Below are positions 7,151 to 64,000 of a DNA stretch of 64,000 nucleotides, piece by piece; the stretch's first letter is position 1; each line of letters begins with the position of its first letter. The stretch spans positions 672,001-736,000 of the forward strand of contig AE017150.2 in NCBI GenBank assembly GCA_000002445.1, given 5' to 3'. This DNA comes from Trypanosoma brucei. Lineage: Eukaryota. The notes beneath the pieces are model-generated. The model saw only the letters and a list, made by a program, of their open reading frames with translations, did not search any database and was not told where the DNA came from. Position numbers and translations under genes: made by a program.

Positions 7151-9009
7151 ATTAACGTGAAATGAAGGGCCAGGCCACTCCCCGCAACAAAACTACCGTG
7201 CGGTTACACTTGCTCTTCGGACTCACTATCGACTTCGGCAGACTCAAACAAACAAAAAAAACAAACAGTTTTTTTTCTTTCTTAGCCGTCCTGATACCAC
7301 CGTGAGCACCTTAACGGTTCAGCGGTTATATTGTTGAGAATGCCGCGCAGTGTGTTGTGTTGTGTTGCCCCGTTTCTTCCCGTTTGTTTCCGCCCTGCAA
7401 TCAATTAAGAGCCGCTATTATGACACAACTTTTTTTTCCTTCTTCAATTCTCTTATATATATATATATATATATTTCTCTTTCGCTTCCTTTTGTTGTTG
7501 TTTTCCCTTGTTTTATTTTTTAATTATTTCTATCCCGAACTTTATATTATCCTTTAGCTAAGGATTTGTTACCGTGTTGTCTGTCTTTTTTCTCTTTTTC
7601 CTCTTTTTTTACTTCAAGTTCTTACTTGAGCAACTTGAACTTGAAGAACTTTACGTGCAACCCCTCAAACGTCACTTCCTATCCCAATCAAAGCACGTAA
7701 ATAACACCAAAAAACTACTACTATATATAAAAAAAAAGCAAGTGAGCTAAGAGAAAAAGAGGAAGAAGAAAAATTGAAGTATAGGGTGAAGATTAAGGCA
7801 ATGTAATATCCGTGTGGTATGTATGAGGGTGTATGTTACATTTAATATTTAAATACATTATGCATATATAAATATATAAATATACGTTCATTGGCTTGTT
7901 TTATAGACGCGGCCGTGCCGCAGTGATTATTTCATTTCTACCGCCCGATTGAGCCAATCCAGCGTTTGGAAAAGGGATAACTGCCTTTCGCTGTTTTCCC
8001 CACTTTCCCTCAATCCTTATAATAATTTCCAACCTCTTCTTTCTTCTCCTTTGCTCCGTTTTTCTTTTCTTTTTTTTTTCTTTAAAAAAAACTCTTTTAA
8101 ACATTGTTTTCTTTTACCTCTTAGAAAAATAAATATATTATTTCCTTTTTAAAATTTCTTTTGCATCTCTTTCTTCTTTTCTTTTCTTTTGTTTTTTATT
8201 TTTCTTCTCCCCTCGATGTTGTTTTGTTCCTTTCCGTCAAATGTCCAATATTCATCTCTTTTTCCTTCTTCCCTTCCTCATTCATCTATTCGTTTTATTT
8301 ACAAAATTTGCCTTTTGCCTTTTCTCATTTATTTTTTTTTACTTTAATCATTTTTTTCCCTTTCCCTCAATACTTATAATATCCCTCTCTTTTTTTCCTC
8401 GTTTATTTACCCGGAGGCATGTGCAAATTGTTTCGGCCGCCCATCAAGAATTAAAATCAAAAGAAACAGAAAAAACAACAACAACAACAACATCATCATC
8501 ATCACCAACAAGAAACATAAATACACACAAACACACATAAATATATAAATATAAATATATAAATATACATATATGCATTTATGTATTTATTTTATCTGCA
8601 CAGCCATACAACAACAGCTACAACAACAAAAAAACAAAACAAAAACAAAAGCCGTCCAACCACAAAAAGGTGTGACATTGAAGTTTTTAAGAAAAAAAAA
8701 GTGATGACGATGGCGAAGGGAGCGCAACAGTAATAATAATAACAATAATAATAAAACCCCAACAGAAAACTGAAACAATCAAATTAAAACAAAAAAAAGT
8801 TACTTACTGGTATTAACAACTATATTATATAGATTAGTAATAGTGACAATTAGGGCAATAATAACACTAGTATAGCAACAACAAAAATATATATTATATT
8901 CGTGTTTAATTACATAAATTTAAATATATAAATATATTTTAATTATTTATTCACGTGTGCGTGTGTGTGCGTGTGTGTGTTTAGCAGTACAAAATCGAGA
9001 AAGGAAGAA

Positions 9010-9042
<33 letters not shown>

Positions 9043-9043
9043 G
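9010..9043. repeat. (AAC)11 trinucleotide microsatellite.
   Basis: aacaacaacaacaacaacaacaacaacaacaa lies within the long ORF-free tract. Confidence 0.9.
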
Positions 9044-12000
9044 AAAGGAATTTATTTTATTTTATGGGGATGAGGCCGCTTGTAAGAGAGGTTAGGAGTC
9101 CGAATGAAAATGAAACAGGCTCATAGGTAAAGGAAAGCTGAGCAGCGTAAAGAGAAATAAATTCCGTATTTCATGCAAAAAAAACAAAACAAAACAAAAC
9201 ACATACAAAAATAATATAGAAAAAGAAATATGCGTATTTATTTATTTATGTATGTATTATATGTGCGCCTTCCCCTTTGTACACGTAAACATAAAACATA
9301 AAACATTGCTCAAAAAAGAAAAAAAAAGAAAGAAAGAAGGAAGGGTTATGAAGAGCTGGAAGCACGAACCTGCACGGACAGTCACAAATGTATAACCCAC
9401 AACAAATCAAATCAAATCAGAGCAAAAAAGAAAAAAAAGAAAAAAGGACTTGAATAAAAAGAAAGAAAAAAAGAAAGAAAAAACAGGTCAAAATTGTAGG
9501 TTCCCTCAGACGCATCCGACATGTGCTCTGATCACAGCTCAAACATATCCACAAATAATTTAAAAAAAAACAACACGACAAAATACTTGCGAAAAAGTAT
9601 ATAAACATGTGGAAAATATTTGTATGTTTATAAACTTCTCCAATGGTTTCGCTGACATTATCAAATTCATCACAACTTTTCCCTATTCTCCTCCTTTCCT
9701 CCTTTTATCTCCAGTCACAAAATATATAAGCACACACGCGCGTATTTACACATGATCTTCTCTTTTTTTCTTTGTAGAAAACAACAACAAAAAAATCGAT
9801 ATAAATGATTTAATTAATACATATAAATTAACACAAAAATATACCGAATACACTTTGCCATTATTCCTCTTGTCGTAGCAATTTTTTGTTTGTTTGTGCG
9901 TGCGTGCGGTGGATTTGGTACAAGGGATATTTTACAACATCCCCACACCAATGCGAAGTCAAAAATACGTAAGGAAAAAAAACAGAAAAACAAAATTAAT
10001 AAATTATTTAACGAAATGAATAAATAATTAATTAACCTTGTTTTCTTTTTTTTTTTTCACTACTAGTATTGTTGATGTTATGGTGGAATCTCGTACAATG
10101 TAGGAGGGACAAGAAGAGGAAGAAGAATGATAATATGAATTCATTGAAACGAAACGAAGAACAAAAACAAGAACAAAAAACAAAAACAAAACAAAACAAA
10201 AACCGCCTCACGTCACTGCTTCCCATGCACTTTTAGTGCTTTTGAATAAAAAAAAATGGGAGAGGGGGTGCGCCTCATATAACGCCAGGCGATATAAAAA
10301 TAATTTTAAAAAATTAAAAAAAAAAGATATTTATATCGTTATCATATCATCGGTAACAATCTCCTTTTGCTTGCCTTTTCCTTACTTACTTCCTTCTTTC
10401 ATTTCCTTCCTCCTTACGAGGAAACAATAATAATAATAATAACAATAATAATAATAATAATGAGACACAAACTCACATGCACGAATCCACATAAATACCC
10501 AAATTCATTCAAATGAATGCATACAACAGAACACAAGGTTTTTTTCTCCTTAAAAAAAAAAAAGAAAAAAAAAAAGAAAATCATTGCTGAGAGACGGCGT
10601 GGCATCTATGAAAAAAAAATGTTATTGAGTGAGCGAATAAGTCGGTGAGTCATCGAAAACATTTGGTGCCATTGCGTGCGCATTTTATTTTTCTCTTGTC
10701 TGTTCTTTTTTTTTCTTTTTCTTTACATTAGCAGTATAATTTATGACCGATAGTAATGGTAAAACGAGTCCTTACGTACCCATCCCAAATGAAAATGAAA
10801 ATGAAAGAAAAAAAAAACACGGGAAACGAGAAACATTAAAACAACAACAAGAAAAAAAAGGGAAAGGGAAAAAAACAAATACACAACAAATGATATATAT
10901 TTTTTTAAAAAAAGAAAAAGAACGCATACATTTCCACCTGATTTCCACACTTGAATCATTATTTTCTTTTCCTTTTCTTTCTTTCTTTTTTCCCCTTCTT
11001 CCCTTCCATCCACGTAATTTCCTCTTATTACTAAAACAATAAATAAATATGTCAGCCACTGACGAAATAATGTCAAGGAAATGGAAAAGTAGGAGGAAAA
11101 GGGAAAACAAACAAACAAACAAAAAAGATAAAAGGAAACAAATGCGGTAACATCACTTCCCTGATATATATATATATATATATTTCTCCTTTTTCGCTTT
11201 ATAAAACCCGCTGTTTCCCCCTATTTTCCTTTCTTTTTTTTTTTGGAAAAAAAAATTTCCGCGAGTATCACACTTATTAATATTTATTTAAAATATTAAT
11301 AATAATGATTATTATTATTTCATAAATTACTTTGAATTACTTTTATTTTTACTGCCGTTTCATTGCATTATATATACAAATATATGTATAAATGTGTGTG
11401 TCTATGCGTGTGTTTGTGTGGTTATTATTATTATTATTATTATTATATTTTTTTTGTAAATTACCTCAGCCGGGGCGGTGATGAAAATAATGAGAAACAA
11501 CAATAATAATGGAATTCCCGTACCGATTTAAATACCACACGGAAAACCCATATCTTCACACATAAATCTAAACATAAACATAAACATAAATGAAAAAAGA
11601 AAATGAATATAAACATAAACATAAACACACACAAATATATAAACTATATTATTATATTACATATTTAAGTATTTATGTATTACGTGAGAATAAGAGGAAG
11701 CGAAAATAAAATGAAGAAATAATAAAAGTAAAATTAATTGAATAACCACCCTCAAAAGCAAGCAAACAAACGAAAAAAACAAAAAAAACAAACAACAAAA
11801 CCAATAATAACAACACTAATAATTAATAAAATTACTACCACTGAAACATTTTGAATATGTTACGTGTATGCGTGCATATATAAATATTTGGTAGTTCTTT
11901 TTTTTCTTTCTTTTTTTTTTTAAAAAAAAGATAAATGATAGGCGTGTTTATGGATTGAGGTTGTACTAAAAGAAGGCGAAGGACATTATTTTATTTTGGT

Positions 12001-12477
12001 AGGCACGACATGAGAGAAAAGGTAGAGGTAAACAGCAACAACAAAAGCCGACAAAATCAAAGAAAGAGAGAGAGAGAGAAAACAAAAAAAGCGTATGACA
12101 ACACTTACCACCAAATTAAAGTACCGAATTGAACAAAAATCCAAGTCATAAATTAATTAGCAAACCAATGAAATTGTTTATTCATTAAATTATTTATTAT
12201 TTTTTCCGGAGTTGTTGGCATCCTTCTCATCCATAGTCTTCTTTTTTTAAAAATAATTTATTTACCTTTTCTTCTCTTTCCTACTTTATTCCCCCCTTTT
12301 CTTTATAAAACCATTTCAACTTTATACATCTAACTGTTCAATACGGGAGAGCGCGAAAACGAAAAAAAAACACAAAAACACCAAAAATAAAACCTAATAA
12401 AAATGAAAAAAAAAAGGGAAAAGGAACTGATGAATCCAAACAATCCTTCTCACATTCCCACGCGCCCTACACGTACT

Positions 12478-12482
<5 letters not shown>

Positions 12483-12516
<34 letters not shown>
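12483..12516. repeat. (TA)17 microsatellite, the longest of many (TA)n tracts in the window.
   Basis: Uninterrupted alternating TA run. Similar tracts sit at ~3481-3501, 3875-3897, 4079-4102, 7454-7474, 11164-11183, 16696-16714, 18553-18602 and 62515-62548. Confidence 0.95.
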
Positions 12517-12518
<2 letters not shown>

Positions 12519-14754
12519 CTGAGTAGCGAATTATACTTGCCCATCAATCAGTTGTTTATTTTCATTTTTGTTTGTTTAATAATTTAATTTGCGTTTATTA
12601 CAAATCTCTTCACTTCGTTTTACCTCCCATTTGTCTTTTCTTCACTTCTGCCCTTATTTTCTTTTTTTTGTTCATATTTCCTATTTTTTAAAAAAATTTT
12701 CGTTCACACGTAATTTGGCTACACCGTGCAACTGTCAAGCAAACAACCAACCAACCAACCAACCAACCAAACAAACAAACAAACACACAGCAATTTTTTT
12801 TTGTTAAATGAGCCGGGAAATATAGAAATCATTAAAAAAGAAAAGAAAGAAAAAGAATGAAAAAGAAGAGGGGAAAGGGGGAGAGACTCATATCATCACA
12901 TGCCTTTCGGATATTATATTAAATACATGCGCAACATCGTACTTGTTTTATTTAATTTGCGTGCATGTGTAATTGAGAGCATGAATTTGCTTCAACCATT
13001 ACAATTAGAAGCGACACGGGACGAATACGACCGCAACTTTTATCCTTTCAATAAATATTCCACACGATTCCGCTGCACTGCGTTATTTAATTTCATTTTT
13101 AAATATTACAAATAAATATATAAATATATATATATTTATTTATATATATTCACTCCACCTTCCCATTCACCTTAACGTTTTTATTGCGCCCTTTTCCCCC
13201 CTCTCCGTTTTCAACTGTGTTTCTCCCACTTTTGAATCACAACACATATTTCTATAAATGTATGTTTGTTATTGATAATTGCTTCACTTGGACCTTCTCG
13301 TTATTGTTTTGTTTTATTTGTCTTTTTGATATTTTATTAACTTTTTAAAAAAAATTTTCCCCTTTTTTCCCATTTCTCTCTTTTCTTCCTTAAATACATT
13401 TATTCAAACATGTTCTTTTTCTCCTCCTCCTCCCCAAAGACACATGCATGCGCTTGCGTATCCTTGTCTTACTTTTTCTTTTTCTCTTTCTTTCTTCCTT
13501 CGAAAAGAAAACTAAAAAAAAAAATTCACCTGTGTTTCGTTCCTCAAAGATCAGATACAACTGTTTCCGCCAATAACAATAATAATGATAGTAACAGTAA
13601 TATCAAAAGGTATAAATAAAATATACAAATATATACCGATATTTCACAATTAATACAAGTAAGTGACGCAACATAGAAAACAAAACAAAACAAAATCGAG
13701 AAGGGAAGCTAGAACAAGAACATATGCACACATACATATACACAGAGACATACACATACATATACACGAATAAAGGTAAATCAAACTGTTAAGGAATGGC
13801 TGAGGGAGTTAAATAAATAAAAAAAAGTAAAGGAAAGAACAACAACAACGAAAACAACAACAACAACAAAGAAACATAACAAAAAAAAGAGAGCTGAGTT
13901 TCCACAAACGTACGTGAACTCTTCTTTATTATTATTATTATTTATTTATTTCTGGCGGGTTGATATCTAATGCCGTTGGCCCTACGACCCACGTGTTTCT
14001 TTCTTTCTACTTTTTTTTTTTAAATTTCTCTCTTCCTTTTTTTTTTTGTGAAACCATTCACTCGTTGATTTCTTTTCCTCATACATTTTTTCTTTCCGTT
14101 TTGTGCGAGTCCACGCTTCGGTATTATTATTATTATCATTATTGTTAGTGTTGGTAGTAGTAGTAGTAGTATTATCCTTGCCCATTTTTTCCTTCCTATC
14201 TCTCTGTCGTTTTTATTTCTTTTTGTCCTCCCGTTCCTTTTTTTTAAAAAAAGATAAACGAAAGGAAAAATCAAAACTAATCGCCATTTCCCACTTGAAA
14301 ACCATCAGGTATCGCCTTATATTTACTTGACACAATGCCCATGCAAAAAAATCCCCCAATTCCTCCAGTTCCACTCCATACATCCACCCGATCCCGCCCT
14401 TCTTTCTTTTTTTAAAAAAAATCTGTTTTATTTGATAACGACAACCCAAATGCCAAACTTTCGATATTGTTTTTTTCTTTTTTTTAACGCTCCGTCACGT
14501 GCCTTCGGCCAGCATGATTTGCATTAACGCTATTTTTTTGTTCCTTCATACATATATGTACAATTCTTCCTGTTCCTCTTCGTATATATTTATATATTTA
14601 TTTCTTCATCTTCCTATTCACTCATTTTCTCTGCTTTCTTCTTTATTTTATTTTTTCTGATATATATATATATATATCATATATTATTTCACTTATTACC
14701 TCTGCCGTTCCTTAAATACACAAACACAGTATATATATATATATGACAGCCATC

Positions 14755-16218
14755 TTAACAGAACATCTGTGGTACCATTGGATAAGACATCATTCCCATT
14801 TGCGCTGTCCCTAACCGCTGCATCGCCGCTGGACTGCTCTCAAATACCTCAATATAACGCGTGCCCATCATTGCACCATTTCTATCAAGTGCCAAAAGCA
14901 CATCATTTCTGTCCTCAACCTCCACGAAGGCTTCTCCCGTCAGACGATTACGCTCATCATAAACCATATGAACCCCTTGCGGCGGGATTTTTACACCAGC
15001 GAAGAACTCCGCAATGGCCTCCTCTGAGGCGCTGTATGGCACGCCACGAATTCGCACAACGAAGGGACTCGGCTGCCGCGCCACCACCAGCGATGACTGC
15101 CCAGGGAAAACTGGAAGAAATGGTGGCGGTGGAGCTCCGCCAGCACCGGGGGGATATGGCGCGGAAGGTCCTTCGGCAACAATTCCTCCACCGCCAACAA
15201 TCCCCCGCTCATCGCTGAACCGGCGATACGGTTGATTGTTCATGGAGTAACGGACATCTCGTCCATCACCACCACCACGCGGATTCATGAAAGAGTTATT
15301 ATGAGGACTGTAGTGATGAAACTGTTGGGCTTGACGATGATGTTGGTGGTTATGGTAGTAGTTTTGCATTTGCGCACTGTGGTGTTGGGCGTGGTGATGG
15401 TTGTTATGGTATTGATGGTGAAATGGCCTCTGGCCCCCAAACCCCAACGGTTGCATGTAACCCTCATAAGTAGTTGGAACAAAAGGGTCAATAATCCGCT
15501 GGACCATCATCGACTCATGGCCCTGGTGGTGCGAAACATCGCCATCCGTGACACTTATTTCATACCCACGACCGCTTCGTCGACCCCGCCGCGAGCGCTG
15601 ACTGGAGGCTCGCATGATGGCATCGCGATCATATACAGTAGAGGGCAGAACTTCAATGTAACGATTGCCCATTGCTTTGCTATGAAGAAGTTTGACACGC
15701 TTCACATCTTCCTCTGATGCGAGCTCAATGAAGGCATCTCCGGTGTTCCTCCCGTCCATGTCACGGCAGATGTCAATGCTCAATACACCTTCCATAGATT
15801 CAATGAAGGTTCGTACATCATCTTCCGTAGCCGCAAAGGGGAGCCCGCGAAGCCGCAGAACGCAAGCCTTATTGCTTTGCTCTTGTTGCTCCATAATACG
15901 CTGTCGCTCCTCCTCTGATGATGTGGAGATCTCAACGTAGCGGGTTTCATCTATGTTTTGGCGATGCAGGCGGTTAATTGCCAACGCCGCGTCCTCCGCG
16001 TTACGAAGTCGAACAAACCCTGTCCCGCGATGAAGGCCCTCAACAAAAAATACAATGGGCTCTTCATCTGCCAAACTAAATGATCCAAAAAACTCCCGAA
16101 TCTTTTCCTCTTTGATGGAGTACGGTAGCCCGTAAAGCCTTAACACCGCGGCTCCCTCTGGCCGGGGACTTTGGCTTCTTTGCTGTTGTTGTTGTTGCTG
16201 CTCAGGAGACTGTTCCAT
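14755..16218 (-). CDS. HNRNPH/F: hnRNP F/H-type RNA-binding protein with three quasi-RRM domains and a His/Gln/Asn-rich low-complexity centre.
   Basis: 487-aa ORF. Three RRM-like modules begin VLRLYGLPYSIKEEKIREFF, VLRLRGLPFAATEDDVRTFI and VVRIRGVPYSASEEAIAEFF. This is the hnRNP F/H qRRM signature (R-G-L-P-[YF/W] instead of canonical RNP1/RNP2). N-terminal poly-Q (QQQQQQQ). A central H/Q/N/Y-rich stretch (HHQYHNNHHHAQHHSAQMQNYYHNHQHHRQAQQFHHY). Confidence 0.85.
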   Translation of the reverse strand: MEQSPEQQQQQQQRSQSPRPEGAAVLRLYGLPYSIKEEKIREFFGSFSLADEEPIVFFVEGLHRGTGFVRLRNAEDAALAINRLHRQNIDETRYVEISTSSEEERQRIMEQQEQSNKACVLRLRGLPFAATEDDVRTFIESMEGVLSIDICRDMDGRNTGDAFIELASEEDVKRVKLLHSKAMGNRYIEVLPSTVYDRDAIMRASSQRSRRGRRSGRGYEISVTDGDVSHHQGHESMMVQRIIDPFVPTTYEGYMQPLGFGGQRPFHHQYHNNHHHAQHHSAQMQNYYHNHQHHRQAQQFHHYSPHNNSFMNPRGGGDGRDVRYSMNNQPYRRFSDERGIVGGGGIVAEGPSAPYPPGAGGAPPPPFLPVFPGQSSLVVARQPSPFVVRIRGVPYSASEEAIAEFFAGVKIPPQGVHMVYDERNRLTGEAFVEVEDRNDVLLALDRNGAMMGTRYIEVFESSPAAMQRLGTAQMGMMSYPMVPQMFC

Positions 16219-16642: not shown

Positions 16643-16714
16643 AATAATAATAATAATAGTAATAATAATAATAATAACAATAATAATAATAATAATATAT
16701 ATATATATATATAT
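16643..16714. repeat. Compound (AAT)n-(TA)n microsatellite (U-rich in the minus-sense transcript), ~430 nt upstream of the hnRNP F/H start.
   Basis: aataataataataatagtaataataataataataacaataataataataataata runs directly into (at)9. On the transcribed (minus) strand this reads as a long U-rich/polypyrimidine-like tract. It is a candidate trans-splicing polypyrimidine signal for the downstream gene. Confidence 0.6.
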
Positions 16715-38847: not shown

Positions 38848-41800
38848 TCAATTCTTCTTCGGTGATATCGATGGTGATTCAGGAGGTGACAAGCAGATAA
38901 TATTGTTATCATTCTGTGAGTAATATTGTTGACGATGAATCAGAGCGAGTCTTTTGGAGTTGGTGCTGCTTCCACGCTCGTGATCTATGTTCAGCGTCAG
39001 CGTAGGTGGGATTATACCCTCTGCATTTACATTTAACCTGGGACGCCGCTCAGAATTAACATCAAAACGCCGAATCGCCCTTTCGAACTTATGACGGAAG
39101 TTACTCGTGAACATCGTATCATCAGCGGCCTCCTCCTTGGCCACATTTTCTGATAAACCCCTCACACTGCACTCGGAGCAAATGACACTATTATTAGTTA
39201 CCTGGAAGTACGCGTCTGATATGCTATTCGCACCACACAGTTTGCAGCGAATACATTGTGGATGGAAATGCAATTTTCCGGCTTCGACACGTGTGACGGC
39301 GTCAACGGGACAGCCACAGTAAGCACACCCGACGTGAATCTCCTCAACAACGTGGATAGGACCCGTATAGTTGAGGGAAACACCGTTGCGAGCGCGAAAG
39401 ACAGAGTATTCTTCGGCGGGAGTTAAATTAAGGGGGTTGCGAACCCTCTGTATAACGTGAGGACCGTAATAATTTTCGTAAAGGAGACCTTTCCTTTTTC
39501 TCCTGACATGCTTGCCCACCGTTCCAGCTGCGGGTTGGTGCTGAGCAGATGCTAACACCTCCTGTTTCGCAGGCTTATCCCCTTTGCTCTTTTCCAATGT
39601 CCGTTGTGGCTCCTTCCCCACATTCGGTGTGAGATCCTTCTTTTCGGAGGGATTGACAGCGGCGCTCTCCACCCTTTTCGGTCCGTCGGCGCTGGCATCC
39701 TTCGGCAATGCAAGTTCCTTTGCCATACCACCCGGACCCGCCGTCTGGGCCCTTACTCCTGCATCTGAGTGTAAAGGAGTTGGTGTAGTGGCGCTCGTTT
39801 CCGTCTCTTTCCGCTCTGGAAATCCACTACCTTCCGTATTTTTCACATCATCCTCTCTGCTACTAACTACCGCGATATCCTGTTCACCCCGGGCGCCTCC
39901 AGAAACTCCAGCGGAACCAACAGTATTGACCACTTCATCATATTCAACAACCGGGGGATTTTCTCCACTCGGAGCCTCAAGGGTCTTAATATCATCAACA
40001 GCCCCAGCGGAGGCAATTGCGTCAGTTTCTACTCCAGTAACCTCAGCAAGAGGAGCCTCAGTGTTGTTGGCGGCCCGCTCGCTCTCTAGGTCCTTGAGCA
40101 CCTCTACAGCTTCGTGGGTAGCTTTGTTTTTGTCTACGGCCTTTGCGTCATTATCGACCTCGATACCACCGGAGGTTATTGCACCATCAACTACACTGTC
40201 ATCCCTAGTCGTGTCTGCTTGGTAAACAATCTCAGACTCCTCTACCACAACGGCAGATTCAGTGCCATCAACGCTAATTGTAACCTCGGCTCCCTCGATA
40301 ACTTCTGTGGCTTCCACAGTCTCAGTGGCATTGAGAGCCTCAACAGCTTCTGCAACTTCTGTGGCTTCCACAGTCTCAGTGGCATTGAGAGCCTCAGCAG
40401 CTTCTGCAACTTCTGTGGCTTCCACAGTCTCAGTGGCATTGAGAGCCTCAACAGCTTCTGCAACTTCCATAGCTTCGACAGTCTCAGTGGCATTGAGAGC
40501 CTCAGCAGCTTCTGCAACTTCTGTGGCTTCCACAGTCTCAGTGGCATTGAGAGCCTCAGCAGTTTCTGCAACTTCTGTGGCTTCCACAGTCTCAGTGGCA
40601 TTGAGAGCCCCAGCAGTTTCTGCAACTTCTGTGGCTTCCACAGTCTCAGTGGCATTGAGAGCCTCAGCAGTTTCTGCAACTTCTGTGGCTTCCACAGTCT
40701 CAGTGGCATTGAGAGCCCCAGCAGTTTCTGCAACTTCTGTGGCTTCCACAGTCTCAGTGGCATTGAGAGCCTCAGCAGTTTCTGCAACTTCTGTGGCTTC
40801 CACAGTCTCAGTGGCATTGAGAGCCTCAGCAGCTTCTGCAACTTCTGTGGCTTCCACAGTCTCAGTGGCATTGAGAGCCTCAGCAGCTTCTGCAACTTCT
40901 GTGGCTTCCACAGTCTCAGTGGCATTGAGAGCCTCAGCAGCTTCTGCAACTTCCGTGGCTTCCACAGTCTCAGTGGCATTGAGAGCCTCAGCAGTTTCTG
41001 CAACTTCTGTGGCTTCCACAGTCTCAGTGGCATTGAGAGCCTCAACAGCTTCTGCAACTTCCGTGGCTTCCACAGTCTCAGTGGCATTGAGAGCCTCAAC
41101 AGCTTCTGCAACTTCCGTGGCTTCCACAGTCTCAGTGGCATTGAGAGCCTCAACAGCTTCTGCAACTTCCGTGGCTTCCACAGTCTCAGTGGCATTGAGA
41201 GCCTCAACAGCTTCTGCAACTTCTGTGGCTTCCACAGTCTCAGTGGCATTGAGAGCCTCAGCAGCCTCTGCAGCTTCCGTGGCTTCCACAGTCTCAGTGG
41301 CATTGAGAGCCTCAGCAGTTTCTGCAACTTCTGTGGCTTCCACAGTCTCAGTGGCATTGAGAGCCTCAACAGCTTCTGCAACTTCTGTGGCTTCCACAGT
41401 CTCAGTGGCATTGAGAGCCTCAGCAGCTTCTGCAACTTCCGTGGCTTCCACAGTCTCAGTGGCATTGAGAGCCTCAGCAGTTTCTGCAACTTCTGTGGCT
41501 TCCACAGTCTCAGTGGCATTGAGAGCCTCAGCAGTTTCTGCAACTTCTGTGGCTTCCACAGTCTCAGTGGCATTGAGAGCCTCAGCAGCTTCTGCAACTT
41601 CTGTGGCTTCCACAGTCTCAGTGGCATTGAGAGCCTCAGCAGCTTCTGCAACTTCTGTGGCTTCCACAGTCTCAGTGGCATTGAGAGCCTCAGCAGTTTC
41701 TGCAACTTCTGTGGCTTCCACAGTCTCAGTGGCATTGAGAGCCTCAGCAGCTTCTGCAACTTCTGTGGCTTCCACAGTCTCAGTGGCATTGAGAGCCTCA

Positions 41801-42594
41801 GCAGCTTCTGCAACTTCTGTGGCTTCCACAGTCTCAGTGGCATTGAGAGCCTCAGCAGTTTCTGCAACTTCTGTGGCTTCCACAGTCTCAGTGGCATTGA
41901 GAGCCTCAACAGCTTCTGCAACTTCTGTGGCTTCCACAGTCTCAGTGGCATTGAGAGCCTCAGCAGCTTCTGCAACTTCTGTGGCTTCCACAGTCTCAGT
42001 GGCATTGAGAGCCTCAACAGCTTCTGCAACTTCCGTGGCTTCCACAGTCTCAGTGGCATTGAGAGCCTCAGCAGCTTCTGCAACTTCCGTGGCTTCCACA
42101 GTCTCAGTGGCATCATCTGCTTCAACAGTTTCTGCAACTTCCATAGCTTCGACAGTCTCAGTGGCATCATCTGCTTCAACAATCTCTGAAACTTCCATGA
42201 TTTCTACAGTCTCAGCGGCATCAGTGGTTACATTGTCTGTTCCGTAGCTTTTTTTTTTAATTTCTCCAATATGATTTTCTGTATTTGTGCCACAGATGCT
42301 TCCTGGAACTTGGTGTGTTTCAGTGGTATCTGAGCTCTTGATTGCTTCAATTGTCTCGTTTTCTTTAGGGTCCATGGGTGGAGAGGCAGTTTCAAAGTTT
42401 CGTTCGTCATTTAGTGTCACGCAATCACTTGCGTCGATACCTTTCCTGGTATTGGCAAGATCAGGAGGAGACGATATGTCGTGGAGATTAACTTCATCCT
42501 CCTCAGCATTTGTGTCGGGCGCACCTTCTAAGCTTTCAGGAAAACTTCCACGACTCGAAGACATTACCACCGCTTCAATATGCGAATGCGGCAC
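38848..42594 (-). CDS. Repeat-containing LIM-domain protein. Acidic N-terminus, ~36 tandem 18-aa repeats (ATETVEATEVAEAAEALN consensus), then a unique C-terminal region with a single canonical LIM domain.
   Basis: 1248-aa ORF. It is the only frame that stays open through unique flanks on both sides of the repeat array. Residues ~140-775 are near-perfect 18-aa repeats with variation only at AEA[A/V/T]EALN or AGALN. LIM domain at nt 39169..39327: C-AY-C-(17)-H-PQ-C-IR-C-KL-C-(18)-C-SE-C, matching C-x2-C-x16-23-H-x2-C-x2-C-x2-C-x16-21-C-x2-C exactly. An alternative start is the ATG at 42562..42564 (MSSSRGSF...). Confidence 0.85.
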   Translation of the reverse strand: MPHSHIEAVVMSSSRGSFPESLEGAPDTNAEEDEVNLHDISSPPDLANTRKGIDASDCVTLNDERNFETASPPMDPKENETIEAIKSSDTTETHQVPGSICGTNTENHIGEIKKKSYGTDNVTTDAAETVEIMEVSEIVEADDATETVEAMEVAETVEADDATETVEATEVAEAAEALNATETVEATEVAEAVEALNATETVEATEVAEAAEALNATETVEATEVAEAVEALNATETVEATEVAETAEALNATETVEATEVAEAAEALNATETVEATEVAEAAEALNATETVEATEVAETAEALNATETVEATEVAEAAEALNATETVEATEVAEAAEALNATETVEATEVAETAEALNATETVEATEVAETAEALNATETVEATEVAEAAEALNATETVEATEVAEAVEALNATETVEATEVAETAEALNATETVEATEAAEAAEALNATETVEATEVAEAVEALNATETVEATEVAEAVEALNATETVEATEVAEAVEALNATETVEATEVAEAVEALNATETVEATEVAETAEALNATETVEATEVAEAAEALNATETVEATEVAEAAEALNATETVEATEVAEAAEALNATETVEATEVAETAEALNATETVEATEVAETAGALNATETVEATEVAETAEALNATETVEATEVAETAGALNATETVEATEVAETAEALNATETVEATEVAEAAEALNATETVEAMEVAEAVEALNATETVEATEVAEAAEALNATETVEATEVAEAVEALNATETVEATEVIEGAEVTISVDGTESAVVVEESEIVYQADTTRDDSVVDGAITSGGIEVDNDAKAVDKNKATHEAVEVLKDLESERAANNTEAPLAEVTGVETDAIASAGAVDDIKTLEAPSGENPPVVEYDEVVNTVGSAGVSGGARGEQDIAVVSSREDDVKNTEGSGFPERKETETSATTPTPLHSDAGVRAQTAGPGGMAKELALPKDASADGPKRVESAAVNPSEKKDLTPNVGKEPQRTLEKSKGDKPAKQEVLASAQHQPAAGTVGKHVRRKRKGLLYENYYGPHVIQRVRNPLNLTPAEEYSVFRARNGVSLNYTGPIHVVEEIHVGCAYCGCPVDAVTRVEAGKLHFHPQCIRCKLCGANSISDAYFQVTNNSVICSECSVRGLSENVAKEEAADDTMFTSNFRHKFERAIRRFDVNSERRPRLNVNAEGIIPPTLTLNIDHERGSSTNSKRLALIHRQQYYSQNDNNIICLSPPESPSISPKKN
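40290..42235. repeat. Tandem array of ~36 copies of a 54-bp unit (plus-strand unit close to TTCTGTGGCTTCCACAGTCTCAGTGGCATTGAGAGCCTCAGCAGCTTCTGCAAC), with degenerate copies at both ends.
   Basis: Directly visible periodicity of 54 nt across ~1.9 kb. Only a few polymorphic positions separate copies (aacagc/agcagc/agcagt, ttctgt/ttccgt). The homogeneity keeps all six frames open, giving artefactual ORFs 40114..42189(+), 40262..42247(+) and 40242..42182(-). Confidence 0.95.
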
Positions 42595-43418: not shown

Positions 43419-46013
43419 TTATGTGGTCGCCTTTCGAACTACATCCTCCAACTCACGTTCTTGTTCCTCCAGAGACAAGTTCATACTACTGTAGTACTGA
43501 CCGATAAGACGAAAGACCGTGACATCACCCTTCTCATCGCCTACCACAACAGCAGGGGCATCTTGTTCAGCGAATAGCACCGCGGTGAGGCGTCGCCTGT
43601 CCACATATTGCACACGAGAGGTAGGATGAATGGATTCGGCAATGGACCAAAATTCGACACTTCCTTGTGCACTTACGGTGGCAAAACTTGTAGAGTTTGC
43701 GTAGGACCACGCCACATCCTGCACCGCATCCTGGTTGGGACTGTCAAACGTCAGCACTTGTGCAGATTGACCAAGGCGATAAAGACGAGAACTCCAGTCA
43801 GCCGAACAAGTTAGAAAATAGTTGTCACTGTATGGAGACCACCGCACGCGATACACTAGCTCAGAGTGGGGGGCATAGTCTAGTTCGTAGTTCTCTGTCT
43901 GACTCTTGTTGCATTGATGCACGGAACCATCTTCCGTACCAACTACATACACACTTCCATCAGCTGGACAGACATCAAAGCACATACCACCACATTGCCG
44001 TGAAAAAAGCGCTTCACATCTACGTCGTTGCGTCGGCATTTTCAGACCCGCAGGAGCGCCATCTTTTTTACCATTCAGGACGCCGCTCGACTCAGCGGCG
44101 AACGCAGACTCTGATGCGGCACCGTGCTGCCTCTTGAGGTTCATAAGATCAGGAGCCACACGCTCAATGGTTTTACCGACAGCCCACTGTACAACACGAC
44201 CATCGCCGGATATGGAAAGGAGGAACTCTCCTCGCTCCTTCCGCCGCGCCACCCATTTCAGCTCCCACACCGCCCCAGTGTGCTGACCGCTTGTGAGGGT
44301 GGTTTTGATAGCGGGGATATTTGTGTCCTTTCGTATGTCATAAATAACGATGCGCCCCTCCGTATTTCCGACCGCAAGAAGACTCGGATGCTCGTCGGAA
44401 AAGGCAATGGAGGAAACACCAGCTTCGGAGGAAAGTTGAATAACGCGCTCAGGAGCAAGAGGATTCTTGAGCGACCAGCAACATACAATACCACCATGAA
44501 ACATGTGTGGGGCATCTAACATTTGAGTCTCTTCGTCATGATACGCGCTGTAACCCACAGCAAGAATGTCGGTCTCTTTGCAATTCCACGCCATACAGGT
44601 TACCTCGCGCCGCTTTGTGATGGGCGATCGAAACGTCCATAAGGCCCTCACATCTTCAGGCAACTTCACTGGTGGCACTTCCGCCTTTTGTGCAACTGCT
44701 GCAGCAGAATCGTCGACCCCAGCTGTCTGTTGATCATTCTGCTGCTCTGCTTCTTTATTATCATCCGTAGTTGCAGAGTTCATGTCGTCTGAATCAGGTC
44801 CCATCAGACCTGACGTTGCCGCTTCCTCCTTCCTTACCCGACAAGCTTCTGGATCCATTACTATCCCTCTATAGGAGAGCTGCACCTCTTCCATGGTATT
44901 CTGCACGACTACGCGCTCCATCACGCGCAGGGTTGACATGATCGTGTCCGAAAACATCCACGCCACTGACTGTTGGGATGTACTTGCATTACTAGGATCT
45001 GTTGTGCGCTCGGAACCCGTATCCTTTCCGGTATCCGAGGGGTCCTCAACAAGTTCTACTTCCTCCTCCTCCTCATCCGCGGTTCCCTCTTGGTCTTCGT
45101 CATTTGTATCATTTTCGGCAAAATGCGCAAACGCGTCGCGAAGCATCCACGGTGTGACTTGTAACCCACCAGAATTCTTTTTGGACGGAGGCTGTATGGC
45201 AGAGTGAATAGACTTTTTCGGTGGCGCAAACGTCCAGGAGCCCTTCACCTGAAACCGCGTCCCCTCGTCCACACGTTTTGCCTCAACCAACTCGGCATAC
45301 GCTTTGTTGCGCTCTAAAACTTCGTTTAACTCAGTCGGCCGATCGTTTGGAACTACTTCATCCTGGTGCATGTAGAGCATGATCGTTGGGGTTTCGTGAA
45401 GCACAACAGTTGTTTTTTCCTCTAACCACTCGCGGCGCTGCTCCCGAGTGAGCACCTGCGTCGCGTCGCCGCGGCCGTGACCATCCCACGACGTGTGTGG
45501 CGGCGCGTCAGCCAGCGGACCACTTCCGGCTGCTCGAGCGGAACCGGTGGTTGTGCTCGAGAGGCGGTGATCAATTGAAATACTCGTGAGTGAGGACGAC
45601 GCAGTGAGGAATCCGACTTGAGATTGATTTGCCCCTTCTCCCGTGGATGGAATTGGAACAACATCAGCAGAAGCATTCAAGGCAGATGACTGAAATATGG
45701 AGTTGGAGTCGGGAAGCATTGCTTGACTTACAGACGTCGTTATCTGACCGCTTGTGTTCTGACTAAAGGGGTGACGCGGATCGTGCGGAGCTCCGCTACC
45801 AGCCCTTTGAAGTGGAAGCGGTGTACGGTCAACGCCATTGTCCAGAACGTGAATTGCTGCTTCTACTTCCTTTTTTGAGTCCGTTGAGCGCCGCCTGCCT
45901 TCCCCTTTACCCCGACGGACGTGGGAACCTCTCACCGCGCTACGGTCACTGCCGCCCCGGCGGTGTCCGCCCGTGGTTGACATTTGGTTTCCACTCGAGG
46001 AGCCATTTTTCAT
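43419..46013 (-). CDS. WD40-repeat protein, dynein intermediate chain-like (axonemal inner-arm I1 IC138/IC140 or IFT-dynein WDR60-like class).
   Basis: The ORF extends to 46367, but its first 118 codons (MGYNGGSSLSSSLFFSLLPHLYVF...) read as translated polypyrimidine UTR. The likely start is the ATG at 46011..46013 (MKNGSSSGNQMSTTGGHRRGG). A long disordered S/T/acidic N-terminal half is followed by a C-terminal WD40 block (LAVGYSAYHD, LLAVGNTEGRIVIYDIRKD, HTGAVWELKWV, FLLSISGDGRVVQWAV, YVVGTEDGSVHQC, FLTCSADWSSRLY). That arrangement is the standard dynein-IC layout. Confidence 0.75.
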   Translation of the reverse strand: MKNGSSSGNQMSTTGGHRRGGSDRSAVRGSHVRRGKGEGRRRSTDSKKEVEAAIHVLDNGVDRTPLPLQRAGSGAPHDPRHPFSQNTSGQITTSVSQAMLPDSNSIFQSSALNASADVVPIPSTGEGANQSQVGFLTASSSLTSISIDHRLSSTTTGSARAAGSGPLADAPPHTSWDGHGRGDATQVLTREQRREWLEEKTTVVLHETPTIMLYMHQDEVVPNDRPTELNEVLERNKAYAELVEAKRVDEGTRFQVKGSWTFAPPKKSIHSAIQPPSKKNSGGLQVTPWMLRDAFAHFAENDTNDEDQEGTADEEEEEVELVEDPSDTGKDTGSERTTDPSNASTSQQSVAWMFSDTIMSTLRVMERVVVQNTMEEVQLSYRGIVMDPEACRVRKEEAATSGLMGPDSDDMNSATTDDNKEAEQQNDQQTAGVDDSAAAVAQKAEVPPVKLPEDVRALWTFRSPITKRREVTCMAWNCKETDILAVGYSAYHDEETQMLDAPHMFHGGIVCCWSLKNPLAPERVIQLSSEAGVSSIAFSDEHPSLLAVGNTEGRIVIYDIRKDTNIPAIKTTLTSGQHTGAVWELKWVARRKERGEFLLSISGDGRVVQWAVGKTIERVAPDLMNLKRQHGAASESAFAAESSGVLNGKKDGAPAGLKMPTQRRRCEALFSRQCGGMCFDVCPADGSVYVVGTEDGSVHQCNKSQTENYELDYAPHSELVYRVRWSPYSDNYFLTCSADWSSRLYRLGQSAQVLTFDSPNQDAVQDVAWSYANSTSFATVSAQGSVEFWSIAESIHPTSRVQYVDRRRLTAVLFAEQDAPAVVVGDEKGDVTVFRLIGQYYSSMNLSLEEQERELEDVVRKATT

Positions 46014-48008: not shown

Positions 48009-48046
<38 letters not shown>
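48009..48046. repeat. (CA)19 dinucleotide microsatellite.
   Basis: An uninterrupted run of 19 CA units lies in the SR-beta/MPP-alpha intergenic spacer. Confidence 0.95.
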
Positions 48047-61212: not shown

Positions 61213-62511
61213 GCCTCAAAGGATGACACCTACCACAACCTCTGATGATTCACGAAAACAAGTTAAAAGTTGTGCTAGAAATTTCTAGCACCTCAAAAAG
61301 TGTTTGAGAGAAACTTTTCTGCCTCTATAAAGTAGAAAAGGTTAATATGATAATGAAGAGCTATGATGGAAGTGATAACAAAAATAATAATGATAGTTAT
61401 CCCGCTACGGTCGTTTGATTTCACTTGTCGGTTGTTGGTGATGAGCCTCTATGTGCTTTGGAACCCTATAGAGGGAAAATAAGAGAGCTAAGCGTAATGG
61501 AGAAATGAATGGAGAGCACACGAGAAGAAATAATAGCGCACGCGATTCATACGTATGGAACAGAATCAAATGTTTTCCCTTCATACAATGTCGAAAAGGA
61601 GGAAGCGGGTTTCCCTAACGGAAGAGAAAGCCGTACGGAAGATGAAGAGAATTAGGCATAACTGTCACATCCAATGTGGTATTCGTATCCACACATCCAC
61701 ACACACAGAGAAAGAGTAGAACACGGTTGGAAAGAGAGAGAGAGAAAAGGGAAAACACACACAAAAAAATTAAATCATCAGATCCTCGCCCGTCTGTCTT
61801 ACCTCTTCTCTGTGCCGTCAACTATCACAATGCAAAGTTTTTTTTTAATTATTATTATTACTTTTTTTGACTTCAATAACAAACAGATGCTTCTGGAGCT
61901 TCCCTTTTCGTCTTTCCCCCCTCTCTCACTTCACTTCAGTTCATCTCCTTTCCTGAGTTTATTAAATTTTATATTGTCACTGTTGTGAAATTTGTACCTC
62001 CTTTTCTTTCCTCCAAAATTTATATGGTTATATATTATTTATTTTCGTAACGTACCACAACATCTACACATGAAGGAATCTTAACAAATATGGAAGAAAT
62101 ATAAAATAAAAGGAACACAAATCAAGAATTGTACGAGGCACACTAAGAAGAAATAAAACAAAGTGAAAATATGACAAAACAAAACAAAACAAAAATTTTG
62201 AAATAAGGAGAGGAATAAATAATGAAAGAAATATATAAGAAGGAATAGGGAAATGGTTGGGGTTTGATATATTCATACATATGTACGTGTGAACGAGTTG
62301 TTTTGGTGGCAGTGCTTCAATGCACGCGAATACAAACCTGAAAAGGAAGAAAATAACGACAAAAACAACGGCATGAAATCAAGAAGAAAACAAAAAGATA
62401 TAATAATACAGGGCCAAATCAAAAAGAAAAAAGAGGAGGATGGAGAAATGAGCACGAAAACACATGACAGCACTAAAAAAAAAAAGAAAAAGAAGAGAAA
62501 TTACACTTCTT

Positions 62512-62552
<41 letters not shown>

Positions 62553-64000
62553 CCCCTTCCTCCCTAAGCACACCTTACTCAACTCGTACCTGTTGTAAGA
62601 AAAAAGTTTTTTTTTAAAAAAATCTTTCTCTACAAACAAAACACCCAAAAAATGAAAGCGAAGAGTGATGCCGTTGTAAAAAAATAAAAAGGAAAAATAG
62701 AAATAGAAATAGAAGCGCAGAAACCGTTAAAGGGGAAAAGGAAAAAGGAAAAAGGAAAAGCAAGCGAAGAAAAAGAAGCTGCTTCTATCCATCTATCCGT
62801 CCATTCATTCATCATAACAGAAATTTTGTGTTTGAATTTGTCTGTAAAGGTGACTGTGAGGAAAAGGGAGAAAAGTAACAAATTCACCCATACGAAGTAA
62901 TTGAACCACCTTCCTCCCTACACACATACACCAAACAATAAAAAAGGGGGGAGAATACGCGCGTTCAATACAAAATAAACAAATAAATAAATATATATGT
63001 ATATTTACGTTCCTGTGTTTATCTATTTTTACTTATCCATCTTTTCCCTCTTTTTTTTAATTTATACTCAACAAAAACCAACAAATATGAATAAATAAGG
63101 GAATGTCTGCATACACTAGCGTAAAAATAAAGAATAAATCAAAAAATGAGCGAGATGTCTGTGGGAAGGAAGGGGATTTTTTAAAAAAATCTCTCTCTAT
63201 CTCTTTTTTAAAAAAAATAATTGAATGGACACTGCTGCAAAGTGGCGGCGCAAGAAAAAACATCGAGCCGTTCACTTTCTTGAGAAAAACGAAAATAGAA
63301 AATACGCGCAACCTCACAAGAAACACAAAAAAAACCTGCCGGCGCTAACACGTCACCACATATTTGATGTAGCGAAACGGAAATATACGGCAACAACCAG
63401 ACCAAAATAATAAAAGTAAAAAAGAAAATAAACGGAATGAGACGGTAGAAATGGGTTTCGCACAAACAAAGAAACAAAAAAAACTCCAAAAATCGGGAAA
63501 ATTGAACCGACAAAAAAAATAAGTGAAGGAATGAGTTGAGTCGAGAGAAAAAGGAAACGCGTTCGGATGGGAATGCAATAAAACTGATGGTGGAAAATGA
63601 CGGCTCCGTTCATTATAAAAAATAACCTTTGGCTCAGTATTACTGAAGCAAAGTAGTGATAAAACTCGGAACCGTACGCCAGCAGCTTACTACTTTCATG
63701 CGCTACGGAAAACCTTCAGGAATTTTCTTTAAAATAGGGGGAAGGGAAAGAAAAAAGTAATAATAATTAACGCCCATACTGACAAGGTACGAAAAACATG
63801 TAAAAATAAATGCCTACACAAGTAGAGTTAAATATATTATAATTGCTCAAGTATGTTGAGAAAAATGTTTTGGTATTTTGATTTTGACTTTGAGAAAACA
63901 AAACAAAAGAGTTTCACTCACTCATCGCTGCGTCGCCAACCACGGTCTTTTCCTCTTCCCATTCCTCCACTCTTTCCTATTGTGAACTTCAAACATCATC

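What the first reader, a model, noticed from the sequence alone, without database searches (positions are those of the whole stretch)
40290..42235. Highly homogenised 54-bp x ~36 tandem array embedded in a coding sequence
Roughly 1.9 kb of near-identical 54-nt units differ at only 3-4 positions per unit. Such homogeneity implies ongoing concerted evolution (unequal crossover or gene conversion). In a reference assembly it usually means the true copy number is collapsed or variable between alleles and strains. Because 54 is a multiple of 3 and the unit has no stops in any frame, all six frames stay open, so automated callers will emit spurious overlapping genes here. Encoded acidic, Ala/Glu/Thr/Val-rich 18-mers of this kind are typical of immunodominant repetitive antigens and of cytoskeleton-associated repeat proteins in trypanosomatids.
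Basis: seen in the sequence. Interest (0 to 1): 0.8.

Follow-up and report, generated by a model that had tools for sequence, protein, structure and literature searches.

The report
Repeat array in trypanosome flagellar protein
The 54-base repeat is real and sits inside a known Trypanosoma brucei gene (Tb927.2.4050) for a flagellar microtubule-bound LIM protein, adding a long acidic tail whose repeat number differs between strain assemblies; it is an ordinary example of a common trypanosome feature.

Summary
Observation confirmed. There are 36 in-frame 54-bp units at window 40276-42219 on the minus strand, 96-97% alike.

They lie inside one 1238-aa ORF (38848-42564, minus). This is Trypanosoma brucei Tb927.2.4050, and its score against PDB 9e5c chain 0q equals its self-score. 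That chain is a "LIM zinc-binding domain-containing protein" in the cryo-EM model of the T. brucei flagellar doublet microtubule 96-nm repeat. It is the ortholog of Leishmania IJAP2, an external microtubule-associated protein.

Only about 97 residues around the C-terminal LIM domain are modelled. The array encodes 648 residues with 182 acidic and no basic residues, in the non-conserved N-terminal half.

Orthologs in seven other trypanosomatid species are 405-446 aa and lack the array, so it is a T. brucei-lineage expansion. Assemblies carry 36, 27 and 13 units with different variant orders, while flanks are 98.5-99.7% identical. A fourth assembly's contig starts inside the array.

"All six frames open" is wrong: four are open. 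Antigenicity is untested.

The gene is already known, and interest is low.

The parts
38848..42564 (-). Complete CDS of Tb927.2.4050 (1238 aa plus stop at 38848-38850). This is the LIM zinc-binding domain protein and the ortholog of Leishmania IJAP2.
   Evidence: ORF and translation. The phmmer score against PDB 9e5c_0q equals the self-score, 2374.6 bits over 1-1238. Gene id comes from the phosphopeptide listed under Tb427.02.4050 and the ortholog table.
42220..42564 (-). Unique acidic N-terminal region, aa 1-115. It has no signal peptide and no transmembrane segment.
   Evidence: The maximum Kyte-Doolittle 19-residue mean in the first 60 aa is -0.31, and the region's net charge is -15.
42112..42219 (-). 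Degenerate 5' edge units 1-2 (AAETVEIMEVSEIVEADD, ATETVEAMEVAETVEADD). They show a weak 27-bp half-unit periodicity.
   Evidence: Unit table. TRF reports a 27-bp row at 42092-42186 with 68% matches.
40330..42111 (-). Homogenised core, units 3-35 (consensus ATETVEATEVAEAAEALN). There are 33 units in 8 DNA variants.
40276..40329 (-). Degenerate last unit 36 (ATETVEATEVIEGAEVTI).
39445..40275 (-). Non-conserved acidic linker, aa 764-1040. It contains the published phosphopeptide GEQDIAVVSSREDDVK (aa 893-908, window 39841-39888).
   Evidence: AlphaFold pLDDT is below 50 here.
38851..39444 (-). Conserved kinetoplastid C-terminal module, aa 1041-1238. It comprises the TPxEEY motif, one LIM domain and the C-terminal QRQQYYxQND motif.
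   Evidence: A 17-sequence alignment has 27 invariant columns. The representative search gave 37 proteins at E<=1e-10.
39163..39327 (-). LIM domain, aa 1080-1134. The zinc ligands are C1080, C1083, H1101, C1104, C1107, C1110, C1129 and C1132.
   Evidence: The LIM spacing pattern matches and all eight ligands are invariant. Pfam LIM scores E=3.3e-4, 21.3 bits against a cut-off of 22.9. Foldseek matches 9e5c_0q at 100% identity and solved LIM domains.
40114..42189 (+). Spurious ORF (691 aa) kept open by the repeat.
   Evidence: It ends at the array edges, and neither annotated assembly calls a gene there.
40262..42247 (+). Spurious ORF (661 aa) kept open by the repeat.
40242..42182 (-). Spurious ORF (646 aa) in an alternative minus-strand frame.

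Best explanation
The array is an in-frame coding minisatellite that arose and expanded in the Trypanosoma brucei lineage. It sits in the fast-evolving acidic N-terminal half of Tb927.2.4050 (IJAP2 ortholog), a protein anchored on the outside of the flagellar doublet microtubule once per 96-nm axonemal repeat.

Shown:
- The gene identity.
- The conserved C-terminal LIM-containing module, which is the only part modelled on the microtubule in the cryo-EM structure.
- The absence of the array from orthologs in seven other trypanosomatid species.
- Different unit numbers and unit orders in three T. brucei-group assemblies with near-identical flanks.
- Strain-private variants, degenerate edge units and recombinant site combinations.

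Inferred:
- The array grows, shrinks and is homogenised by replication slippage, unequal sister-chromatid or allelic exchange, and gene conversion.
- The encoded 13-36 x 18-aa segment has 27.5% Glu, no Lys/Arg/His, and a net charge of about -5 per unit. It probably acts as a flexible or extended polyanionic projection or spacer hanging from the LIM anchor, not as a catalytic or specific binding domain.
- Its exact length is probably under weak constraint.
For: - Array and register.
- Organism and orthologs.
- Gene id: the peptide GEQDIAVVSSREDDVK is listed under Tb427.02.4050 in PMC9633767. The upstream neighbour is Tb927.2.4060, TbIC138, 864 aa (PMC4640498).
- Structure: the score against PDB 9e5c chain 0q equals the self-score. 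Foldseek reports a modelled target of 97 residues at 100% identity, aligned to the LIM region.
- Leishmania ortholog: 9y6s_4L at E=2.8e-30. The supplementary table of PMC12637542 lists IJAP2 = LtaP33.2870 = Tb927.2.4050 under 'External MAPs' with 96 nm periodicity.
- Orthologs without the array: T. congolense 446 aa, T. vivax 405, T. grayi 406, T. conorhini 412, T. melophagium 422, Porcisia 441, L. tarentolae 429.
- Copy number is 36/27/13. The AA variant at unit positions 13-14 (13 copies) is private to the window. The TV variant occurs in homogenised core units only in the other two assemblies. Flanks are 98.5-99.7% identical and colinear.
- Polymorphism is confined to four sites, and the edge units are degenerate.
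- Charge and absence of a signal peptide.
- The L. mexicana IJAP2 deletion has normal growth, motility and flagellum length. This fits an accessory, weakly constrained protein.
Against: - No read-level data were available. The copy numbers are assembly values and may be partly collapsed or mis-assembled.
- The conformation of the repeat is unknown. The single-sequence AlphaFold model gives regular beta strands with a 9-residue period at pLDDT 60-80. If real, that would make the repeat a structured solenoid rather than a flexible tail.
- The normal knockout phenotype comes from Leishmania, whose protein lacks the array, so it says nothing directly about the array's role in T. brucei.
- The exact position of the protein relative to the inner junction rests on a name in a supplementary table. 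I could not read the primary T. brucei structure paper.
Confidence: 0.75

Rival explanations
1. The repeat is primarily an immunodominant B-cell antigen. Multivalent 18-mers released from lysed parasites would draw a strong antibody response, as with other trypanosomatid repeat proteins. The repeat number would then be shaped by host immunity or be useful for serodiagnosis.
For: The array has many near-identical hydrophilic acidic units. From general knowledge rather than any test here, several intracellular cytoskeletal or flagellar repeat proteins of trypanosomatids are dominant antigens. This is compatible with the best explanation rather than exclusive of it.
Against: No serological evidence was found. 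A full-text search for the repeat peptide returned zero papers, and no paper naming Tb927.2.4050 as an antigen was found. The protein is axonemal and intracellular, with no signal peptide. Immune selection on it would therefore be indirect.
Confidence: 0.25
2. The repeats fold into a defined beta-solenoid rod, about one coil per 18 residues. The rod would work as a rigid ruler or strut projecting from the doublet microtubule, so unit number sets a physical length that matters for flagellar architecture.
For: The single-sequence AlphaFold model of the 13-unit allele gives 7-residue strands with a 9-residue period across the whole array at pLDDT 60-80. Its best Foldseek resemblances, apart from the Leishmania ortholog, are left-handed beta-helices (LpxA, LpxD, GlmU), which have 18 residues per coil.
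Against: Those Foldseek matches are not significant (E>=0.09, probability <=0.15, TM about 0.1). From my recollection, AlphaFold tends to produce solenoids for perfect repeats. Stacking about 5 uncompensated Glu per coil with no basic residue is electrostatically unfavourable without bound cations. The region is not modelled in the cryo-EM structure (97 residues modelled). Assembly lengths of 13 to 36 units argue against a fixed ruler.
Confidence: 0.1
3. The array length in this window is largely an assembly artefact, either over-expansion or collapse, and the between-strain differences reflect assembly methods rather than biology.
For: The array (1.9 kb) is longer than short or Sanger reads. 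The T. equiperdum OVI contig starts inside it, and its gene model there is a 292-aa fragment. [quoted passage not shown]
Against: All three full assemblies contain an uninterrupted in-frame array without Ns and with the same edge units. Unit orders differ in complex, non-nested ways and use different variant sets, which simple collapse does not produce.
Confidence: 0.2
4. The Thr-rich units, each with an N-A-T sequon, mark a secreted or surface mucin-like glycoprotein.
For: There are 33 N-x-T sequons in the array and 18% Thr.
Against: There is no signal peptide and no hydrophobic segment anywhere (maximum KD19 is 1.01, inside the LIM domain). The protein is built into axonemal doublet microtubules.
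Confidence: 0.02

Closest known systems
Leishmania tarentolae IJAP2 (LtaP33.2870; PDB 9y6s chain 4L) and its kinetoplastid orthologs
   Same: They share the C-terminal module: the TPxEEY motif, a single LIM domain with all eight zinc ligands, and the QRQQYYTQNDxN motif. They are built into the doublet microtubule with 96-nm periodicity and have a variable acidic N-terminal half.
   Different: The orthologs are 405-446 aa and have no tandem array. The T. brucei protein carries 13-36 extra 18-aa units and is 824-1238 aa.
Tandem-repeat cytoskeletal and flagellar proteins of trypanosomatids (for example T. brucei MARP, GM6, FAZ1, NUP-1; T. cruzi FRA; Leishmania K39). Named from general knowledge, not tested here.
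   Same: These are long in-frame arrays of near-identical short units inside large intracellular structural proteins. Their repeat numbers vary between strains and are hard to assemble.
   Different: The 18-aa unit here has no detectable sequence relation to those repeats. No antigenicity data exist for it. Here the anchor is a LIM domain on the axonemal doublet.
Coding minisatellites under concerted evolution (general class)
   Same: The unit length is a multiple of 3, the core is homogenised with degenerate edges, some variants are strain-private, and copy number varies.
   Different: Nothing unusual for the class.
Canonical LIM-domain proteins (CRP, FHL, zyxin/paxillin, LMO)
   Same: The C-x2-C-x17-H-x2-C-x2-C-x2-C-x18-C-x2-C spacing matches, and the predicted fold superposes on solved LIM domains at 2.6-3 A over about 60 residues.
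   Different: It is a single LIM domain bound to a microtubule doublet rather than to actin-linked or nuclear partners. The Pfam score is just below the gathering cut-off.

Membership tests
Tb927.2.4050 / IJAP2 doublet-microtubule-associated LIM protein | Sequence identity with the chain built into the T. brucei 96-nm doublet microtubule structure | tested here: met
   The phmmer score against 9e5c_0q is 2374.6 bits over 1-1238 and equals the self-score. One substitution lowers it to 2372.2.
Tb927.2.4050 / IJAP2 doublet-microtubule-associated LIM protein | Orthology to Leishmania IJAP2 | tested here: met
   9y6s_4L matches at E=2.8e-30 over the C-terminal module. The authors' table pairs LtaP33.2870 with Tb927.2.4050.
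Tb927.2.4050 / IJAP2 doublet-microtubule-associated LIM protein | Conserved synteny and gene id | tested here: met
   The phosphopeptide of Tb427.02.4050 is present at aa 893-908. The upstream gene is the 864-aa TbIC138, Tb927.2.4060. T. b. gambiense and T. b. equiperdum show the same gene order.
LIM domain (Pfam PF00412) | Eight zinc ligands with C-x2-C-x16-23-H-x2-C-x2-C-x2-C-x16-21-C-x2-C/H/D spacing | tested here: met
   The regular expression matches aa 1080-1132. All eight ligands are invariant in 17 orthologs.
LIM domain (Pfam PF00412) | Profile score at or above Pfam's gathering cut-off | tested here: not met
   The score is 21.3 bits against a cut-off of 22.9, E=3.3e-4. The T. congolense ortholog carries a precomputed PF00412 hit.
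LIM domain (Pfam PF00412) | LIM fold | tested here: met
   The AlphaFold model has pLDDT 77-87 over the domain. Foldseek matches many solved LIM domains with probability 0.99-1.0 and rmsd 2.6-3 A over 57-62 columns.
Coding minisatellite under concerted evolution | In-frame unit that is a multiple of 3, with a homogenised core and degenerate edge units | tested here: met
Coding minisatellite under concerted evolution | Variants private to one lineage and spread over several units | tested here: met
   The AA variant at unit positions 13-14 (types C and L, 13 units) occurs only in the window. The TV core variant (type D) occurs 4 and 3 times in the other two assemblies and never in the window.
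Coding minisatellite under concerted evolution | Copy-number polymorphism between alleles or strains | tested here: inconclusive
   Three assemblies carry 36, 27 and 13 units with colinear flanks. No reads or sizing data were available, so assembly error cannot be excluded.
Immunodominant tandem-repeat antigen | Recognition of the repeat by sera of infected hosts | not testable with these tools
   No paper was found that holds the peptide or names the gene as an antigen.
Left-handed beta-helix / beta-solenoid repeat | Significant structural match of the repeat region to solved solenoids, or experimental order | tested here: not met
   Foldseek gives E>=0.09, probability <=0.15 and TM about 0.1. 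The region is not modelled in the cryo-EM structure.

The most novel reading that the evidence does not exclude
The T. brucei-specific array might encode an ordered polyanionic rod or cation-binding (Ca2+/Mg2+) solenoid. It would project from each 96-nm repeat near the inner junction. Its subspecies-specific length (13-36 units, about 23-66 kDa) would then tune flagellar mechanics or local ion buffering, making a length-polymorphic structural adaptation of the trypanosome axoneme.
Probability: 0.07. Interest if true: 0.5.

Novelty: already known. Interest (0 to 1): 0.15.

Why it matters
The practical value is limited.

- The array explains why this gene is fragmented or has different lengths in different T. 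brucei-group assemblies. It also warns against taking 1238 aa as a fixed protein length.
- About half of the Tb927.2.4050 protein is a lineage-specific repeat that is absent from the modelled part of the cryo-EM structure and from all orthologs examined. Anyone tagging, deleting or modelling this protein should take that into account.
- The array could serve as a strain-typing minisatellite or be tested as a serodiagnostic repeat.

It does not open a new biological question by itself.

Tried and rejected
- The Pfam hits of the repeat to Plasmodium_HRP (85 bits, above cut-off) and LED_rpt (54.8 bits, below its 59-bit cut-off) were treated as compositional matches of an Ala/Glu-rich repeat, not as homology.
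- A protein search with the N-terminus plus six units returned only two weak unrelated hits and missed even the known orthologs. It was swamped by low-complexity words, so it is uninformative about other proteins carrying this repeat.
- Full-text searches for the repeat peptide and for Tb927.2.4050 in main texts found nothing. The TrypTag paper's held supplements do not contain the id.
- The primary T. brucei structure paper (Xia et al. 2025, Science, PMC12165780) is not held. The exact binding site of chain 0q could therefore not be read.
- Exact-sequence look-ups of the window's own proteins failed. The strain of the window is inferred only from the score match to the PDB entity.
- Rfam and tRNA scans of the window were empty.
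- A permutation test for clustering of identical adjacent units was significant in T. b. gambiense (p=0.005) but not in the window (p=0.45). No clear higher-order repeat was seen.
- The surface-mucin reading (N-A-T sequons) was rejected on topology and on the cryo-EM placement.
Full report
**1. The observation**

Tandem Repeats Finder reports a 54-bp period at 40300-42167 with 34.6 copies, 96% matches, no indels and a score of 3400. The raw sequence shows the same thing.

Read in the protein register, the array is exactly 36 units of 18 codons at 40276-42219 on the minus strand. The 33 interior units fall into 8 DNA variants with a mean pairwise identity of 96.9%. Each differs from the consensus GCCACTGAGACTGTGGAAGCCACAGAAGTTGCAGAAGCTGCTGAGGCTCTCAAT at 0-3 positions, with one unit at 5. 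Only nt 24 (synonymous), nt 37 (Ala/Thr), nt 41 (Ala/Val) and nt 44 (Glu/Gly) are polymorphic in more than one unit. Units 1, 2 and 36 are degenerate.

The claim that no frame has a stop is wrong. Across the array the six frames carry 1, 0 and 38 stops (plus strand) and 0, 1 and 71 stops (minus strand). This gives three spurious long ORFs besides the real one.

**2. Which frame is real, and which gene**

Only one frame continues beyond the array on both sides: 38848-42564 on the minus strand, 1238 aa from the first ATG. Its non-repeat C-terminal 480 aa match proteins of the following taxa:
- T. b. equiperdum: 824 aa, 99% identity.
- T. b. gambiense DAL972: 1076 aa.
- T. congolense: 446 aa, 57% identity over the C-terminal module.

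Every real gene in the window lies on the minus strand, as in a trypanosome polycistronic unit.

The peptide GEQDIAVVSSREDDVK is listed as a phosphopeptide of Tb427.02.4050 in PMC9633767 and occurs at aa 893-908. The upstream WD40 gene is the 864-aa TbIC138, Tb927.2.4060 (PMC4640498). The gene is therefore Tb927.2.4050.

**3. What the protein is**

An AlphaFold model was built for the last 260 aa from a 17-sequence alignment. Its pLDDT is 77-87 over the zinc-finger region. In the PDB it matched the following:
- 9e5c chain 0q, 'Cryo-EM structure of 96 nm repeat of microtubule doublet from T. brucei flagellum', at 100% identity over 96 of 97 modelled residues.
- 9y6s chain 4L, the Leishmania tarentolae 96-nm repeat.
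- Many solved LIM domains.

By sequence, the 9e5c_0q entity is 1238 aa and is named 'LIM zinc-binding domain-containing protein'. It scores 2374.6 bits over 1-1238, exactly the self-score of the window protein, whereas one substitution lowers the score to 2372.2. The window therefore carries the same allele as the deposited reference sequence, array included.

The supplementary chain table of PMC12637542 lists IJAP2 = LtaP33.2870 = LmxM.32.2640 = Tb927.2.4050 among 'External MAPs' with 96-nm periodicity. Its knockout table records a complete L. mexicana deletion with normal growth, motility (9.1 um/s, among the fastest in the screen), cell shape and flagellum length.

The LIM assignment rests on three points:
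- The exact ligand spacing C-x2-C-x17-H-x2-C-x2-C-x2-C-x18-C-x2-C at aa 1080-1132.
- Invariance of all eight ligands in 17 orthologs.
- The fold matches.

The Pfam score is marginally below the cut-off, 21.3 against 22.9 bits.

**4. Where the array sits and how old it is**

An exhaustive HMMER search with the C-terminal 260 aa found 37 representatives at E<=1e-10. The named ones are T. congolense, T. vivax, T. grayi, T. conorhini, T. melophagium and Porcisia hertigi, and L. tarentolae is added through the PDB. All are 405-446 aa. Two unnamed representatives from run assemblies are longer, at 568 and 701 aa.

All share the about 200-aa C-terminal module: the TPxEEY motif, the LIM domain and the QRQQYYTQNDxN motif. 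All have a non-alignable acidic N-terminal half. I saw no tandem array in the sequences shown.

The T. brucei protein is built as follows:

| Segment | Residues |
|---|---|
| Unique N-terminus | 115 aa |
| Array | 648 aa |
| Linker | 277 aa |
| Conserved module | 198 aa |

The array is thus a T. brucei-lineage insertion and expansion in the unconstrained part of the protein.

**5. Dynamics of the array**

The same locus was fetched from T. b. gambiense DAL972 (L001) and T. b. equiperdum IVM-t1 (L002).

- The flanks (6 kb on each side, plus the N-terminal and C-terminal coding parts) are colinear and 97.7-100% identical.
- The arrays hold 36, 27 and 13 units.
- The unit orders are not nested subsets of one another.
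- The variant with Ala-Ala at unit positions 13-14 (13 units) occurs only in the window.
- The Thr-Val variant occurs in homogenised core units only in the other two assemblies. In the window this pair appears only in degenerate edge unit 2.
- The 5' degenerate 'EADD' unit recurs internally in the other two assemblies but not in the window.
- All four combinations of the two biallelic sites (nt 37 and nt 41) occur.

Together with the degenerate edge units, this is the usual signature of unequal exchange, slippage and conversion within an array. The mechanism itself is inferred, not shown.

The T. equiperdum OVI contig CZPT02001529.1 begins 13 nt plus one unit from the 3' end of the array. Its gene model is a 292-aa C-terminal fragment. 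This is direct evidence that the array breaks an assembly.

No reads were available. Whether 36, 27 and 13 are the true allele lengths therefore remains open.

**6. What the repeat encodes**

The 648-residue segment is 29% Ala, 27.5% Glu, 18% Thr and 13% Val. It has 182 acidic residues and no Lys, Arg or His. Each unit is six tripeptides: ATE, TVE, ATE, VAE, AAE, ALN.

Each unit has an N-A-T sequon. However, the protein has no signal peptide or hydrophobic segment and is axonemal, so glycosylation is not expected.

In 9e5c only about 97 residues are modelled, so the repeat is not modelled there. A single-sequence AlphaFold run of the 13-unit allele predicts regular 7-residue beta strands with a 9-residue period at pLDDT 60-80. 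Its only resemblances are non-significant matches to left-handed beta-helices. I do not trust this model for three reasons:
- From my recollection, perfect repeats are prone to solenoid artefacts in AlphaFold.
- Five uncompensated carboxylates per 18 residues would disfavour such stacking.
- The match statistics are poor.

My preferred reading is a flexible or extended polyanionic appendage. This is an inference.

**7.

| Claim | Verdict |
|---|---|
| Periodicity and homogeneity | Right |
| Coding context | Right |
| Concerted evolution | Right |
| Assembly and copy-number problem | Right |
| Trypanosomatid origin | Right |
| 'Cytoskeleton-associated repeat protein' | Right |
| Six open frames | Wrong (four are open) |
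| Spurious overlapping genes | Not borne out in the two annotated assemblies checked |
| Immunodominance | Untested |

**8. Novelty and interest**

The gene, its 1238-aa product and its place in the axoneme are already public. In-frame repeat arrays in trypanosome structural proteins are a familiar class.

The points that may not have been stated before are minor. They are the T. brucei-lineage origin of the array, its 13-36-unit range between assemblies, and the fact that half the protein is an unmodelled polyanionic repeat. Interest is low.

Noticed in passing
window 7151-14754: A 7.6-kb stretch with GC 0.31 and no open stretch longer than 159 codons. It lies downstream (minus strand) of a three-RRM protein gene at 14755-16218. 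That is unusually long for an intergenic region or 3' UTR in this otherwise dense gene array.
   Followed up: partly
window 43419-46013 (-): The gene immediately upstream of the repeat gene is TbIC138 (Tb927.2.4060), an inner-arm dynein intermediate chain. Two axonemal genes are therefore adjacent in the same transcription unit. The mechanical ORF list extends it to 982 aa from a GTG, whereas the published protein is 864 aa.
   Followed up: partly
L003 1-700 (T. equiperdum OVI contig CZPT02001529.1): The contig starts inside the array, 13 nt plus the last unit from its 3' end. The gene is annotated there as a 292-aa fragment starting at an internal Met.
   Followed up: yes
window 1-64000: All 18 plausible genes are on the minus strand, forming one polycistronic unit. 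They include eIF5B-like, RESC1/2, beta-ketoacyl synthase, MCM, DnaJ, ThiF-family, SRP receptor beta, M16 peptidase and an enoyl-CoA hydratase / 3-hydroxyacyl-CoA dehydrogenase.
   Followed up: partly
window 16643-16697; 48009-48046; 12482-12515; 62516-62547: Intergenic microsatellites: (AAT)18, a 38-bp CA-dinucleotide run, and several (TA)n runs of 10-17 units.
   Followed up: no
window 61213-64000: The window ends in a 2.8-kb AT-rich stretch (GC 0.35, positive AT skew) with no ORF longer than 133 codons.
   Followed up: no
window 42220-42564 (-): The 345-nt unique N-terminal coding part differs at 8 positions (97.7% identity) from both T. b. gambiense and T. b. equiperdum, which are identical to each other there. 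That makes it more diverged than the surrounding non-coding flanks at about 98.8%.
   Followed up: no
L001 6346-7803 and L002 6346-7047: In the T. b. gambiense and T. b. equiperdum arrays the degenerate 5' edge-type unit ending in 'EADD' recurs in the array interior. This suggests block duplications that included the array edge. It is not seen in the window's allele.
   Followed up: partly
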